From the NCBI GenBank assembly GCA_963698805.1, contig CAVOSN010000005.1, positions 155,553-219,552 of the forward strand: 64,000 nt of DNA. The letters run 5' to 3'. A model generated the notes under the pieces. That model ran no database searches, had not been told where the DNA came from, and worked only from the letters and a program-made list of their open reading frames with translations. A program made the translations under genes and the position numbers. Each line of letters opens with the position of its first letter. Position 1 is the first letter of the stretch. This DNA is from an uncultured Acidobacteriota bacterium. GTDB taxonomy: Bacteria; Acidobacteriota; Terriglobia; Terriglobales; Acidobacteriaceae. Below are positions 54,934 to 60,908 of this stretch, piece by piece.

Positions 54934-56925
54934 ATGTGCGGGATTAGCGGCGTGGTGAATTGCGGGAGCAGGGAAGTGCTTGCCCGGATGACGCACGTCC
55001 AGAAGCACCGCGGCCCCGACGATTCGGGCCTCTGGGAGCAGCGCTTTCCGGACGGTACTTACGTTGGACTCGGCAGCCGCCGTCTTGCCATCCTCGACCT
55101 CTCGCCCAGTGGCCACATGCCCATGATGAATGCGGACCGCTCGGTCTGCATTACATACAACGGGGAGGTCTACAACTTCCGCGATCTGCGCCGGGAACTC
55201 GAGAGCAAGGGATACCGCTTCGTCTCCGACACCGACACGGAAGTTGTGTTGCACCTCTACGAAGAAGAAGGGCCGGAATGTGTCCGGCGCTTGAATGGGA
55301 TCTTTGCGTTTGCGATCTGTGATACGCGATCGGGTACGCCGGTGGTTTTTGTGGCGCGCGATCACTTTGGGGTGAAGCCTTTTTACTACTGGTACCGCGG
55401 CCGGCAGATGGCGTTCGCGTCGGAGGCGAAGGCTCTGCTGGAGGTTCCCGGAATCACGCCAGAGCTCGACACGCAGTCGCTGCATCAGTACCTGACATTC
55501 CTGTGGGTGCCCGATCCCAAGACGATTTTTCGTGGCATCTTCAAACTGCCCGCTGGGTACTACGCCATTCTTAAGGGTGGGGAGTTGGCGATCACGAAGT
55601 ATTGGGATCTGACCTTCCCTGCGGCTGACCAGCCATATTCACGGTCTGAGGAGGATCTTGCGCAGGAAATTCGGGAACGATTCCAACGCTCGGTGGAAGC
55701 GCAAATGGTTAGCGACGTCCCGATCGGTGCATTCCTGAGTGCGGGACTCGATTCCTCGAGCATCGTCGCGATGATGAGGCGCGCCACCACCCAGCCGGTG
55801 CGCACTTATACGATCACATTTCCGCGCAAGTATCGTGTCGGCGAGACGGCTCTGGACGATCCAGCAGTTGCAGCGCGCCTGGCACAGCATCTGGGCTGCG
55901 AGAACGAGCAGATTGTCGTCGAACCAGATGTTGCAACCCTCTTGCCGCAACTCACCTGGCACATGGATGAGCCAACGGCGGATCCGGCGATCATTCCTGC
56001 TTACCTGGTCTGCCGGGCAGCTCGGAGACAGGCGACTGTTCTGCTTTCTGGCGTTGGCGGAGATGAACTTTTTGCCGGCTACCGCAAGCACGTGGCGCAC
56101 GGTTGGGCGGAGCAGTATGGCAGGCTGCCGGCCTTTGCGCGCAAGCTGTTCGAGCCTGCCATTCTGAAGTTGCCCAGCCTGCGCGGAACACCGATGAAAG
56201 GCGGAGCCCGTCTCGCCAAGAAAATGGCCCGCAGCGCGTCGCTCAGTCCGACTGCGCGGTTCGTGATGAACTGTACCTATCTGGATCAGGAACAGAAGGC
56301 ATCGCTGTATACGGGAGATTTATTGAGCGATCTTTCAAATGTCGAGCCTGCCGAGCGGCACTACGCGGCTTTCGACGAAGTGTCGCATGCTGACTTTCTC
56401 AACCAGATGCTCTATCTCGATACGAAGATATTCATGGTGAGTCTGAACCTTACCTATAACGACAAGATGAGCATGGCTTCGTCGGTGGAGGTGCGCGTTC
56501 CTTTCCTTGATCGCGAGCTGGCGGAGTTCGTGGCATGGAATGTTCCGCCCCATATGAAGCTGCGAGGTGTGCTGCGTCCGACCACCAAGTACATTTTCCG
56601 GAAAGCGATGCACGATGTTCTACCCGCCGAAGTCCTGCGGCAACCGAAGGCAGGATTCGCCGCTCCGGTAGACTATTGGCTGGCGCACGACCTCAAGGAA
56701 ATGGTGGACGATTTGCTCTCCGGCAAGCAGATTCGCGACCGCGGGCTTTTTCAACCTGAAAAATTACGCACTCTGGTGGACGAGCAGCGGCGCGGCACCA
56801 ACGACTGGTCGATGCAAATCTGGCAATTTCTGACGCTCGAATTGTGGATGCGAATGTTTCTCGATGGCGGAGCGCGAAAGTTGGGAGAGGAAACGATCCA
56901 GTCGGAGCAGGCGGCGACCGCATGA
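54934..56925 (+). CDS. Asparagine synthase-like glutamine amidotransferase, paralogue 2
   Basis: MCGISG (Ntn Cys). PP-loop FLSAGLDSSSIVA. 663 aa, intact. Confidence 0.9.
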   Translation: MCGISGVVNCGSREVLARMTHVQKHRGPDDSGLWEQRFPDGTYVGLGSRRLAILDLSPSGHMPMMNADRSVCITYNGEVYNFRDLRRELESKGYRFVSDTDTEVVLHLYEEEGPECVRRLNGIFAFAICDTRSGTPVVFVARDHFGVKPFYYWYRGRQMAFASEAKALLEVPGITPELDTQSLHQYLTFLWVPDPKTIFRGIFKLPAGYYAILKGGELAITKYWDLTFPAADQPYSRSEEDLAQEIRERFQRSVEAQMVSDVPIGAFLSAGLDSSSIVAMMRRATTQPVRTYTITFPRKYRVGETALDDPAVAARLAQHLGCENEQIVVEPDVATLLPQLTWHMDEPTADPAIIPAYLVCRAARRQATVLLSGVGGDELFAGYRKHVAHGWAEQYGRLPAFARKLFEPAILKLPSLRGTPMKGGARLAKKMARSASLSPTARFVMNCTYLDQEQKASLYTGDLLSDLSNVEPAERHYAAFDEVSHADFLNQMLYLDTKIFMVSLNLTYNDKMSMASSVEVRVPFLDRELAEFVAWNVPPHMKLRGVLRPTTKYIFRKAMHDVLPAEVLRQPKAGFAAPVDYWLAHDLKEMVDDLLSGKQIRDRGLFQPEKLRTLVDEQRRGTNDWSMQIWQFLTLELWMRMFLDGGARKLGEETIQSEQAATA

Positions 56926-59172: not shown

Positions 59173-60908
59173 ATGCTGATTCTGGGCCTCAATATGTTTC
59201 ACGCCGACGCCTCCGCTGCCATCGTGCAGGACGGGGAGGTCGTTTTTGCGATTGCTGAAGAGCGGTTGAATCGAAAGAAGCATTTCGGAGGCTTTCCGAC
59301 GCTGGCGATTCAAGCGTGCCTGGATGCCGTGGGCGCGAAAATTTCAGACGTGGAACATGTCGCTGTCGGGCAGGATAGCGATGCCAATATTGCGCAGAAA
59401 GTCCAGTACGCGCTTGCCAATCCAGCGAAGATTCTGAATTTCATGCGCATGCGTCAGCGGAAAGAAGCCATGCGCGATGTGCGCACGCTGCTTTCAAACG
59501 CATTTGAAATCGAACCCGGGAAGTTGCGTTTTCAGGAACATCATCTCGAACATCACATCGCGCATATCGCTAGCGCATACTACTGCTCGCCGTGGGAGAA
59601 GGCGGCGGGCTTTAGTTATGACGGATCGGGCGATTTCGTGTCGACCATGATGGCGCGCTGCGAGGGCAATGACATCGAGGTGCTGGACCGGGTCTATCTT
59701 CCGCACTCGCTGGGAAGCTTCTACACCATGATCTGCGAATTCATCGGCTACAAGAAATACGGTGATGAAGGCAAGGTCATGGGGCTCGCGCCTTACGGCA
59801 AGGATAAATACTGTGAGCAAATGCGCAAGATTATTGGACTAAAGAACGGATCGTTTCAGCTTGATCTGAAATATTTCAAGCCCTGGGGAGCAATCAGGGA
59901 ATGGAAGTGTTGCCCGACGGCACGGTGCGCCTGGCGCGGCATTTTTCCGAGCGTATGCAGAAAACTTTCGGGGAACCGCGCGAGCCGCATGCCGAGATTC
60001 TGCAGCGCGACATGGATCTTGCCTTCGCGATGCAGCAGCGCTTCGAGGAAGTCTTCTTCCATCTGCTGAACGAGCTTCACAAGCGTGTTCCGCTGGAGGA
60101 TTTGGCGATGGCGGGAGGGTGCGCGCTGAATAGCGTGGCCAACGGAAAACTCTTTTCGACACGCCGTTTCGGCGCACATGGATTCAGCCAGCGGCTGGCG
60201 ATGAGGGGTTGGCGGTCGGAGCTGCGCTGCACACTTATCATTCCGTGCTGAAGCAGCCTCGTCGGCGCGAACTTAAGCACTCGTATCTGGGACCGGAGTT
60301 CTCAGAGGGCCGCATCGAGGCGCGATCTGAAGAACGCCGGTCTGCAATATCGCGAAGTTGGAGCGCGAGCCGTTGCTGGAGAGCGTCGCCGAACAGATCG
60401 CGCAGGGCAACGTCGTCGGCTGGTTTCAGGGACGCATGGAGTGGGGGCCGCGGGCGCTGGGCAATCGATCGATCGTTGCCCATCCCGGGCTGCCAAATAT
60501 GAAGGATGTGCTGAATGCGCGCATCAAGCATCGCGAGTGGTTTCGGCCATTTGCGCCTTCGATTCTCGCGGAACAGTCAGCATGAATATTTCGAGCACGA
60601 TCATCCATCGCCGTTCATGTTGCACGTGTACAAGATTCGACCGGAGAAGCGGAAGGAGCTTGTGCGCGGTGAATCACGTGGACGATACGGGCCGGCTGCA
60701 GACCGTAGCGCGCGATGAGAATCCGCTGTACTACGATCTGATCAAGACGTTTCGAACGAAGACCGGAATCCCAGTCGTGTTGAACACAAGCTTCAACGAG
60801 AATGAGCCGATCGTGTGCACTCCGGCCGAAGCGATCGATTGCTTCCAGCGCACGAAGATGGACGTGCTGGCAATCGGACCCTTCCTCGCACTGAAGACGG
60901 AAAACTAA
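59173..60908 (+). pseudogene. NodU/CmcH-family carbamoyltransferase broken by about 6 frame shifts
   Basis: MLILGLNMFHADASAAIVQDGEVVFAIAEERLNRKKH ... WIQPAAGDEGLAVGAAL ... [19 protein letters not shown] ... AVNHVDDTGRLQTV ... VLNTSFNENEPIV, recovered only by switching frames near 59888, 60157, 60322, 60357, 60578 and 60660. Confidence 0.8.

What the first reader, a model, noticed from the sequence alone, without database searches (positions are those of the whole stretch)
56922..60908. Thirteen frame breaks concentrated in two adjacent genes while 8 kb of flanking operon is intact
The bi-domain oxidoreductase needs frame switches near 57006, 57353, 57558, 57585, 57667, 58045 and 58180. The carbamoyltransferase needs them near 59888, 60157, 60322, 60357, 60578 and 60660. 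Every segment between breaks still reads as well-conserved family sequence, and the junctions I inspected closely are not in homopolymer runs. Upstream asnB-like/GT2/asnB-like (4.8 kb) and downstream propeller/epimerase/GT4 (3.1 kb) have no lesion. About one indel per 300 bp, confined to 4 kb, is hard to reconcile with uniform sequencing error or ordinary pseudogene decay. Options: a locally poor consensus (a strain-variable EPS segment assembled from few or mixed reads), very recent targeted inactivation, or an artificial or mosaic sequence.
Basis: seen in the sequence. Interest (0 to 1): 0.7.

Follow-up and report, generated by a model that had tools for sequence, protein, structure and literature searches.

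The report
Assembly-error frameshifts in two sugar-polymer genes
The thirteen frame breaks are really in the sequence, but they are almost certainly consensus errors of a long-read metagenome assembly in a stretch where co-occurring strains differ, not dead genes or new biology.

Summary
Compared with nine related sequences, the window carries exactly 13 private single-base indels between 57004 and 60659: 10 insertions and 3 deletions. They form two clusters, 7 in 1.2 kb and 6 in 0.8 kb. Undoing them restores a 737-aa bi-domain oxidoreductase and a 577-aa carbamoyltransferase with no internal stop.

They are not real pseudogenes. Substitutions on the window's lineage are still mostly synonymous. 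All 13 lesions are 1 nt, mostly insertions, and none lies in a long homopolymer.

A k-mer assembly of run ERR11563127 is 100% identical to the window on both sides. It differs only inside 55895-60842, by 60 SNPs, and lacks all 13 indels. Two conspecific Flye contigs are intact at these sites. They carry 20 and 22 private 1-nt indels elsewhere, breaking genes that are whole in the window.

Across this operon, 44 Nanopore MAG loci show 2.56 frame changes per 10 kb. 107 short-read loci show 0.05-0.09.

The broken carbamoyltransferase fragment is in the public NCBI/ENA record, so nothing was planted. Verdict: a local consensus artefact in a strain-variable EPS segment. Reads were not examined.

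The parts
56922..59140 (+). Bi-domain oxidoreductase (MDR/ADH-like N-terminal half plus Gfo/Idh/MocA C-terminal half). It is broken by 7 single-base indels. Repaired, it is 737 aa.
   Evidence: Pfam pieces; repair gives one 737-aa ORF; the nearest 14 cluster members are all 737 aa; NCBIfam.
59173..60908 (+). NodU/CmcH-type carbamoyltransferase, broken by 6 single-base indels. Repaired, it is 577 aa.
   Evidence: Carbam_trans_N and Carbam_trans_C are split over five frame segments; repair gives one 577-aa ORF; NodU-like by NCBIfam.
57004..57007 (+). Extra base 1. Reads as T at 57004/5 against L082/L002/L001, or as C at 57007 against L154/L156.
57361..57361 (+). Extra base 2 (A; TT becomes TAT)
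57559..57559 (+). Extra base 3 (G; CC becomes CGC)
57581..57581 (+). Extra base 4 (G; CC becomes CGC)
57667..57668 (+). Missing base 1. Relatives have C or G between these positions.
58036..58036 (+). Extra base 5 (A; TT becomes TAT)
58180..58180 (+). Extra base 6 (A; TT becomes TAT against L154/L156)
59879..59882 (+). Missing base 2. Its placement within AAGCCC is ambiguous.
60159..60160 (+). Missing base 3. Relatives have C or T.
60321..60321 (+). Extra base 7 (C; GG becomes GCG)
60350..60351 (+). Extra base 8 (T or C), next to substitutions
60574..60574 (+). Extra base 9 (C; AA becomes ACA)
60659..60659 (+). Extra base 10 (C)
55895..60842 (.). Strain-variable segment. It is the only stretch where the Logan contigs L154/L155 differ from the window: 60 SNPs, 36 of them at codon position 3. 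The flanks 50106-55894 and 60843-64000 are identical apart from 1 mismatch. All 13 indels lie inside this segment.

Best explanation
The window comes from a 221,967-bp contig of a soil Terriglobales (Acidobacteriota) metagenome assembly, most probably a Nanopore-only Flye plus Medaka assembly of the Microflora Danica long-read kind.

In the sample, closely related strains share identical sequence on both sides of the EPS operon's centre. They differ by 0.7-3% across about 5 kb (55.9-60.85 kb). The assembler collapsed this strain bubble into one path. The consensus for that path was then built from fewer or mixed-haplotype reads. Polishing left 13 single-base errors there, mostly spurious extra bases.

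The two genes are therefore intact in the organism. They only look broken in the deposited sequence.

Shown here:
- The indels are private to the window.
- Both genes repair perfectly.
- Selection on both genes is still purifying.
- An independent assembly of the same strain background does not reproduce the indels.
- The indels coincide with the strain-variable segment.
- Nanopore contigs of the same species and clade carry the same kind of error, in the same kind of clusters, but at other places.

Inferred, not shown:
- The window's own contig is Nanopore-derived.
- Coverage or haplotype mixing is the proximate cause.
For: 1. Nine comparators are intact at all 13 sites: L082, L081, L002, L001, L150, L151, the Logan contigs L154/L155, and L156.

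2. Undoing the 13 changes gives 737-aa and 577-aa ORFs without stops. The oxidoreductase has exactly the length of its 14 nearest cluster members.

3. Window-lineage substitutions are 48 synonymous to 19 non-synonymous in the oxidoreductase and 53 to 13 in the carbamoyltransferase. The flanking genes look the same. Divergence does not rise locally.

4. The Logan contigs of run ERR11563127 match the window at 100% over 50106-55894 and with 1 mismatch over 60843-64000. Inside 55895-60842 they carry 60 SNPs and none of the 13 indels. The oxidoreductase is called as 737 aa, and the 394 C-terminal residues of the carbamoyltransferase are one open frame. The chance that all 13 indels fall in this segment of the compared 13.9 kb is about 1.5e-6.

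5. The same Logan contig does reproduce the window's lesions in the neighbouring GT87-like gene (no difference before 55895). This serves as an internal control: lesions that are really in the reads are recovered.

6. Conspecific Flye contigs are intact at the 13 sites or over their own range, yet carry their own private 1-nt indels:
- L156 (about 98% identity) has 18 insertions and 2 deletions. They break the M28 peptidase, GalE, asnB1, GT2 and the carbamoyltransferase, which are whole in the window or broken elsewhere. They sit where SNP density against the window is 4-6%.
- L158 (98.9% identity) has 18 insertions and 4 deletions over 5.6-26.7 kb, where the window has none in coding sequence.

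7. Base rate over the same operon:
- 44 Nanopore MFD MAG loci: 116 frame changes in 454 kb, with 11 loci at 5 or more.
- 36 short-read MAG loci: 3 in 338 kb.
- 71 JGI/ENA contigs: 2 in 443 kb.
- The window scores 6 by the same crude measure.

8. Private 1-nt indels in four Nanopore loci total 33 insertions and 4 deletions, most not in long homopolymers. They are clustered: L010 has 13 in 2.6 kb. Three short-read controls have 0. The window's 10:3 ratio does not differ from the comparators' 51:6 (p=0.35).

9. The MFD-LR MAGs were assembled with Flye --meta --nano-hq and one round of Medaka, without short-read polishing. The authors note Nanopore-associated errors at lower coverage (PMC12313526).
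Against: No reads were examined, so depth and haplotype mixing at the 13 sites are inferred.

The platform of the window's contig and of run ERR11563127 could not be confirmed.

The Logan contigs carry a different haplotype in the critical segment. They therefore show that an intact allele exists on the same strain background. They do not show that the window's own allele is intact. The repaired window proteins were not found exactly anywhere in the collection.

The window's insertions differ in detail from the comparators. Seven of 10 sit between two identical bases and differ from them, against 9 of 50 in the comparators (p=0.002). Only 1 of 10 extends a run, against 22 of 50. This is unexplained.
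Confidence: 0.9

Rival explanations
1. The genes are real, very recent pseudogenes. A minor strain carries an allele of the 5-kb segment in which both genes were hit by 13 single-base indels. It coexists with a strain that carries the intact allele.
For: The window's haplotype in 55895-60842 is a natural-looking allele: 36 of the 60 differences from the Logan haplotype are at codon position 3. A real decayed gene lies 6 kb upstream and is reproduced by Logan, so gene loss does occur in this locus. The window's exact allele without indels was not found.
Against: Selection is not relaxed. There are no nonsense mutations and no indels longer than 1 nt. Insertions outnumber deletions 10 to 3, and none lies in a long homopolymer. 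From general knowledge, this is contrary to the deletion-biased, run-associated indel spectrum of bacterial pseudogenes. Seven and six independent hits, with no matching rise in substitutions, would need an indel-only mutational burst. The same signature appears at other places in other Nanopore contigs of the same species and is absent from short-read assemblies.
Confidence: 0.05
2. The sequence is artificial or edited: the indels were introduced in silico, or the window is a mosaic of unrelated sequences.
For: The inserted bases look scattered and are not tied to homopolymers. The window's repaired proteins are not in the collection.
Against: The frameshifted 298-aa carbamoyltransferase fragment (59173-60069) is itself on record at NCBI and ENA, on one 221,967-bp contig. 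That same contig carries the window's intact GalE, GT2, asnB2 and aldehyde dehydrogenase. The window is colinear with its relatives over all compared stretches.
Confidence: 0.01
3. The breaks are read through by recoding: programmed ribosomal frameshifting or transcriptional slippage restores the reading frame in vivo.
For: Each segment between breaks still reads as conserved protein.
Against: None of the 13 sites has a slippery run; the longest run is 3 nt. None of the breaks is conserved in any relative. Thirteen events of mixed sign in two genes have no precedent, as far as general knowledge goes.
Confidence: 0.005

Closest known systems
Indel (frameshift) errors in Nanopore-only metagenome assemblies (Flye plus Medaka), as in the Microflora Danica long-read MAG catalogue (PMC12313526)
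   Same: The indels are single-base, insertions dominate, and they are private to one assembly. They cluster on a kilobase scale. They occur in 28 of 44 Nanopore loci of this same operon and almost never in short-read assemblies.
   Different: The catalogue's authors tie reduced coding density to lower coverage, low G+C and long homopolymers (>6 nt). Here no site touches a run longer than 3 nt. The window's errors are confined to one 3.7-kb stretch of a contig that is otherwise clean. Seven of the 10 insertions sit between two identical bases, more than in the comparators.
Collapsed strain bubbles (haplotype-collapsed consensus) in metagenome assembly
   Same: The affected stretch is exactly where a second haplotype exists on otherwise identical flanks. 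In the conspecific contig L156, the private indels also sit where divergence from the window is highest.
   Different: The collapse itself was not observed. No assembly graph or read pile-up was available.
Bacterial pseudogenes formed by frameshift mutations
   Same: ORFs are interrupted but remain recognisable. A true example lies nearby at 50009-51013: a 182-bp deletion plus two 1-nt deletions in short runs, reproduced by an independent assembly, with the gene lost altogether in sister species.
   Different: The two genes of the finding show no relaxed selection, no larger deletions and no stop mutations. Insertions are in excess, and the lesions are not reproduced.

Membership tests
True pseudogene (frameshift-inactivated gene) | The lesions are reproducible in independent sequence of the same strain or population | tested here: not met
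   The Logan contigs L154/L155 have 100%-identical flanks and lack all 13 indels. The conspecific contig L156 lacks them too. The frameshifted fragment is recorded only from the one NCBI/ENA contig, not from Logan.
True pseudogene (frameshift-inactivated gene) | Selection is relaxed after inactivation (non-synonymous changes, stop codons) | tested here: not met
   Window-lineage changes are 48:19 and 53:13 synonymous to non-synonymous, like the flanking genes. The repaired ORFs contain no stop.
True pseudogene (frameshift-inactivated gene) | A natural indel spectrum: deletions at least as common as insertions, a range of sizes, association with runs | tested here: not met
   There are 10 insertions and 3 deletions, all of 1 nt, with a longest adjacent run of 3 nt. 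The expected spectrum is taken from general knowledge and was not measured here.
Long-read consensus artefact in a strain-variable segment | The indel signature matches that of known Nanopore assemblies of related genomes and is absent from short-read assemblies | tested here: met
   Nanopore loci have 51 insertions and 6 deletions of 1 nt. Short-read controls have 0 to 1. The insertion-to-deletion ratio does not differ from the window's. Frame-change rates are 2.56 per 10 kb against 0.05-0.09.
Long-read consensus artefact in a strain-variable segment | The errors coincide with a segment where more than one haplotype exists | tested here: met
   All 13 indels lie within 55895-60842, the only stretch where the Logan contigs differ from the window.
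Long-read consensus artefact in a strain-variable segment | The source contig was assembled from long reads, and the 13 sites have low or mixed read support | not testable with these tools
   The source is a 221,967-bp contig at NCBI/ENA.
Programmed frameshifting or transcriptional slippage | A slippery or homopolymeric site at the shift, and conservation of the shift in relatives | tested here: not met
   No run is longer than 3 nt. No relative shares any of the shifts.
Bi-domain-containing oxidoreductase (ADH/MDR-like plus Gfo/Idh/MocA) | Both domains lie in one polypeptide of about 737 aa | tested here: met
   This holds only after repair: ADH_N/ADH_zinc_N and GFO_IDH_MocA with its C-terminal domains. 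The repaired protein is 94-96% identical to 737-aa proteins that NCBI names 'bi-domain-containing oxidoreductase'.
NodU/CmcH-type carbamoyltransferase | Carbam_trans_N followed by Carbam_trans_C in one polypeptide | tested here: met
   This holds only after repair: Pfam pieces cover profile positions 2-346 and 1-168. The NCBIfam NodU model matches at E 7e-49, below its equivalog cut-off.

The most novel reading that the evidence does not exclude
The window's allele is real. A minor strain would carry two adjacent EPS genes that each took 6-7 single-base hits, mostly +1 insertions at non-repetitive sites, with no accompanying substitutions. That would point to a localised, indel-specific mutational or targeted inactivation process not described in bacteria.
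Probability: 0.03. Interest if true: 0.7.

Novelty: not a real feature. Interest (0 to 1): 0.07.

Why it matters
Biologically it does not matter: the two EPS genes should be treated as intact.

Practically it is a caution. In this Acidobacteriota clade, 28 of 44 Nanopore-derived GTDB species-representative loci carry frame breaks in this one operon. The errors come in kilobase clusters that track strain-variable segments. They mimic pseudogenes and split proteins in public databases. Pseudogene counts, pangenome presence/absence calls and protein clustering built on such MAGs will be biased most in the strain-variable loci (EPS, O-antigen), which are often the loci of interest.

Tried and rejected
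1. Ordinary pseudogene decay. Rejected on the synonymous bias, the absence of stops and the indel spectrum.

2. A hotspot specific to these two genes. Rejected: across 44 Nanopore loci, frame changes are spread over all nine operon genes at 1.6-3.7 per 10 kb, apart from the first gene, which was covered in only 5 loci.

3. A planted or edited sequence. Rejected because the frameshifted product is on record.

4. A codon-usage Viterbi frame tracker over the whole window. It recovered the broken region but also gave false frame switches in low-complexity sequence and short genes. It was used only to pick candidates, which were then checked with Pfam.

5. Exact look-ups that found nothing. The positional index does not hold the window's own contig, although the protein collection does. 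The repaired proteins were also not found.

6. The run accession was not found in the paper's supplements or in the paper library.

7. The idea that each insertion is the alternative allele of an adjacent SNP kept in tandem. No comparator carries the required allele at the clear sites, so this remains unsupported.

8. Scans of GTDB representative genomes and JGI metagenomes did not contain the window's own strain; the best matches were 89-91% nucleotide identity.
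Full report
**What is there**

The window is from a soil Terriglobales (Acidobacteriota) genome. The closest sequences found are MAG and metagenome contigs of that group.

The finding lies in an EPS-type operon. In order, it encodes a GalE-like epimerase, an asnB-like amidotransferase, a GT2, a second asnB-like gene, a bi-domain oxidoreductase and a NodU/CmcH-type carbamoyltransferase. 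These are followed by a protein with no family match, a C5-epimerase-like protein, a GT4 and a Wza-like exporter.

Between 56922 and 60908 the two central genes are cut into frame segments. Each segment still matches its Pfam domains.

**Checking the observation**

L002 is a short-read MAG contig, 89.4% identical and colinear over 51050-64000. Both genes are intact in it.

Alignment of the window with L002 and L001, then L082, then L081, L150 and L151, gives exactly 13 window-private single-base indels and no others in coding sequence between 51050 and 64000:
- Ten extra bases: 57004-7, 57361, 57559, 57581, 58036, 58180, 60321, 60350/1, 60574, 60659.
- Three missing bases: after 57667/8, 59879-82 and 60159.

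The indels form two clusters: 7 in 1.2 kb within the ADH-like half of the oxidoreductase, and 6 in 0.8 kb within the C-terminal half of the carbamoyltransferase. A clean 1.7 kb lies between them.

Undoing the 13 changes gives one 737-aa ORF and one 577-aa ORF without any stop. The 737-aa length equals that of the closest public homologues, which are 94-96% identical, and of all 14 members of the nearest cluster.

**Is the rest of the window clean?**

Pfam coverage of the larger ORFs between 1 and 50 kb runs end to end.

Nucleotide comparison covered 5.6-26.7 kb (against L158 and L157) and 47.1-64 kb (against L156 and L082). It shows no further window-private frame-breaking indel, with two exceptions treated under "Noticed in passing".

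The concentration is therefore real. The chance of 13 out of 13 falling in 3.66 kb of the 12.95 kb aligned is about 7e-8.

**Why these are not real pseudogenes**

- Substitutions assigned to the window's lineage are 48 synonymous to 19 non-synonymous in the oxidoreductase and 53 to 13 in the carbamoyltransferase. These ratios are within the range of the flanking genes.
- Divergence does not rise locally.
- There is no stop mutation and no indel longer than 1 nt. Insertions outnumber deletions 10 to 3. No site touches a run longer than 3 nt.
- Neutral decay that had accumulated 6-7 indels per gene would, from what is generally known of bacterial pseudogenes, also show many unconstrained substitutions, a deletion bias and a range of indel sizes. 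None of these is seen.

**Where the sequence comes from**

Several window proteins are in the 15-billion-protein collection on a single 221,967-bp contig with sources NCBI and ENA: GalE, GT2, the protein at 60914-61990, asnB2 and an aldehyde dehydrogenase. The frameshifted 298-aa carbamoyltransferase fragment (59173-60069) is recorded on the same contig.

The breaks are therefore part of the public record and were not introduced later.

**An independent assembly of the same strain background**

Two contigs of the Logan assembly of run ERR11563127 cover the region:
- L154 corresponds to window 50106-59749.
- L155 corresponds to window 59721-64000 and beyond.

They are identical to the window over 50106-55894 and differ by 1 base over 60843-64000. 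Inside 55895-60842 they differ by 60 SNPs, 36 of them at codon position 3, and they lack all 13 indels.

On these contigs the oxidoreductase is called as an intact 737-aa protein. The last 394 residues of the carbamoyltransferase form one open frame.

The chance that all 13 indels fall in this variable segment, rather than in the 8.9 kb of identical flank, is about 1.5e-6.

The same Logan contig does reproduce the lesions of the neighbouring decayed GT87-like gene. A lesion that is truly in the DNA is therefore recovered by this assembly.

**Conspecific long-read contigs**

L156 (ENA ERZ25039520, contig_150078, 266 kb, about 98% identical) is intact at all 13 sites. It carries 18 private single-base insertions and 2 deletions of its own, between 47.7 and 54.8 kb and at 59.15 and 59.84 kb. 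These break the M28 peptidase, GalE, asnB1, GT2 and the carbamoyltransferase. They sit where its SNP density against the window is 4-6%.

L158 (ENA ERZ25039478, contig_11808, 352 kb, 98.9% identical) carries 18 private insertions and 4 deletions over 5.6-26.7 kb. Its gene calls for the aldehyde dehydrogenase, MreB, MreC, MreD and PBP2 are truncated or split. All of these are whole in the window and in eight short-read JGI contigs.

The clusters of extra bases therefore move from place to place between assemblies of one species.

**Base rate**

With one crude measure (frame changes along tblastn chains of the nine operon proteins), the rates are:

| Set of loci | Loci | Frame changes | Sequence | Rate per 10 kb |
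|---|---|---|---|---|
| Nanopore MFD MAG loci | 44 | 116 | 454 kb | 2.56 |
| Short-read MAG loci | 36 | 3 | 338 kb | 0.09 |
| JGI/ENA contigs | 71 | 2 | 443 kb | 0.05 |

Of the Nanopore loci, 28 have at least one frame change and 11 have five or more. The window scores 6 by the same measure.

Where a close relative allows polarisation, four Nanopore loci carry 33 private 1-nt insertions and 4 deletions. About half of these insertions do not even extend a neighbouring base, and they are clustered: L010 has 13 in 2.6 kb. Three short-read controls carry none.

The window's 10:3 insertion-to-deletion ratio does not differ from the pooled 51:6 (p=0.35).

The MFD long-read MAGs were built with Flye --meta --nano-hq and one round of Medaka, without short-read polishing. 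Their authors report Nanopore-associated errors at lower coverage (PMC12313526).

**Most likely mechanism**

Related strains in the sample share identical flanks but differ by 0.7-3% over about 5 kb of the EPS operon. The assembler collapses the bubble. The consensus of the retained path then rests on fewer or mixed reads, and spurious single bases survive polishing.

The indel pattern, the non-reproduction and the coincidence with the variable segment are shown. The platform of the window's contig, and the read depth and mixture, are inferred. I put this explanation at 0.9.

**What remains open**

- No reads were seen.
- The Logan contigs carry a different allele in the critical segment. They prove that an intact allele exists on the same background, not that the window's own allele is intact. 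The repaired window proteins are not in the collection.
- Seven of the window's 10 insertions sit between two identical bases, against 9 of 50 in the comparators (p=0.002, post hoc). Only 1 of 10 extends a run, against 22 of 50. All four insertions in the second cluster are C. I have no explanation for these details.

**Verdict**

The feature is an assembly artefact, so interest is low.

Noticed in passing
window 50009-51013, minus strand: This is a decayed membrane glycosyltransferase-like gene with a weak GT87 match. Against the intact orthologue in L082/L156 it has a 182-bp deletion at 50255 and 1-nt deletions in short runs near 50654 and 50745. The Logan contig L154 shares these lesions exactly. 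The whole gene is absent (39 bp left) from the sister species L002, L081 and L001.
   Followed up: yes
window 17065-19949, plus strand; junction near 18475-18490: The RNase E/G gene is split. The S1-domain N-terminus plus an acidic, disordered insert of about 400 aa lies in one frame (17065-18570). The catalytic part lies in another (from 18198). Eight short-read contigs of a sister species (about 92% identical) encode a single 958-aa protein, and in the short-read contig L152 a single frame stays open across the junction. The break is in GA-rich low-complexity sequence. The conspecific Nanopore contig L158 is split in the same way (500 aa + 469 aa). It is therefore either a systematic long-read error or a real trait of this species.
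   Followed up: partly
window 48500-53500 and 55895-60842: Strains of one species differ in blocks across the EPS locus. The window and L156 differ by 4-6% over 48.5-53.5 kb but by less than 1% over 54-57 kb and 61-64 kb. The window and the Logan contigs are identical except in 55.9-60.85 kb. This pattern suggests recombination tracts or allele replacement within the operon.
   Followed up: partly
loci L001-L080 (GTDB species representatives), L153, L156, L158: Nanopore-derived MAGs that serve as GTDB species representatives carry many single-base insertions that split genes. In this one operon, 28 of 44 loci are affected. L158 also shows truncated or split calls for housekeeping genes (MreB, MreC, MreD, PBP2). 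Such split proteins are present in the public protein collections.
   Followed up: yes
window 13395 and 11642: These are two harmless window-side 1-nt differences from L158/L157. One falls in the mreD stop codon (TAA instead of TGA plus one base). The other is in the mreB-mreC spacer.
   Followed up: no
L082 about 13834-13837 (window about 62020): The JGI contig L082 has a private 1-nt deletion at the boundary between the gene with no family match and the C5-epimerase-like gene. The tblastn chain scores it as one frame change. It was not examined further.
   Followed up: no
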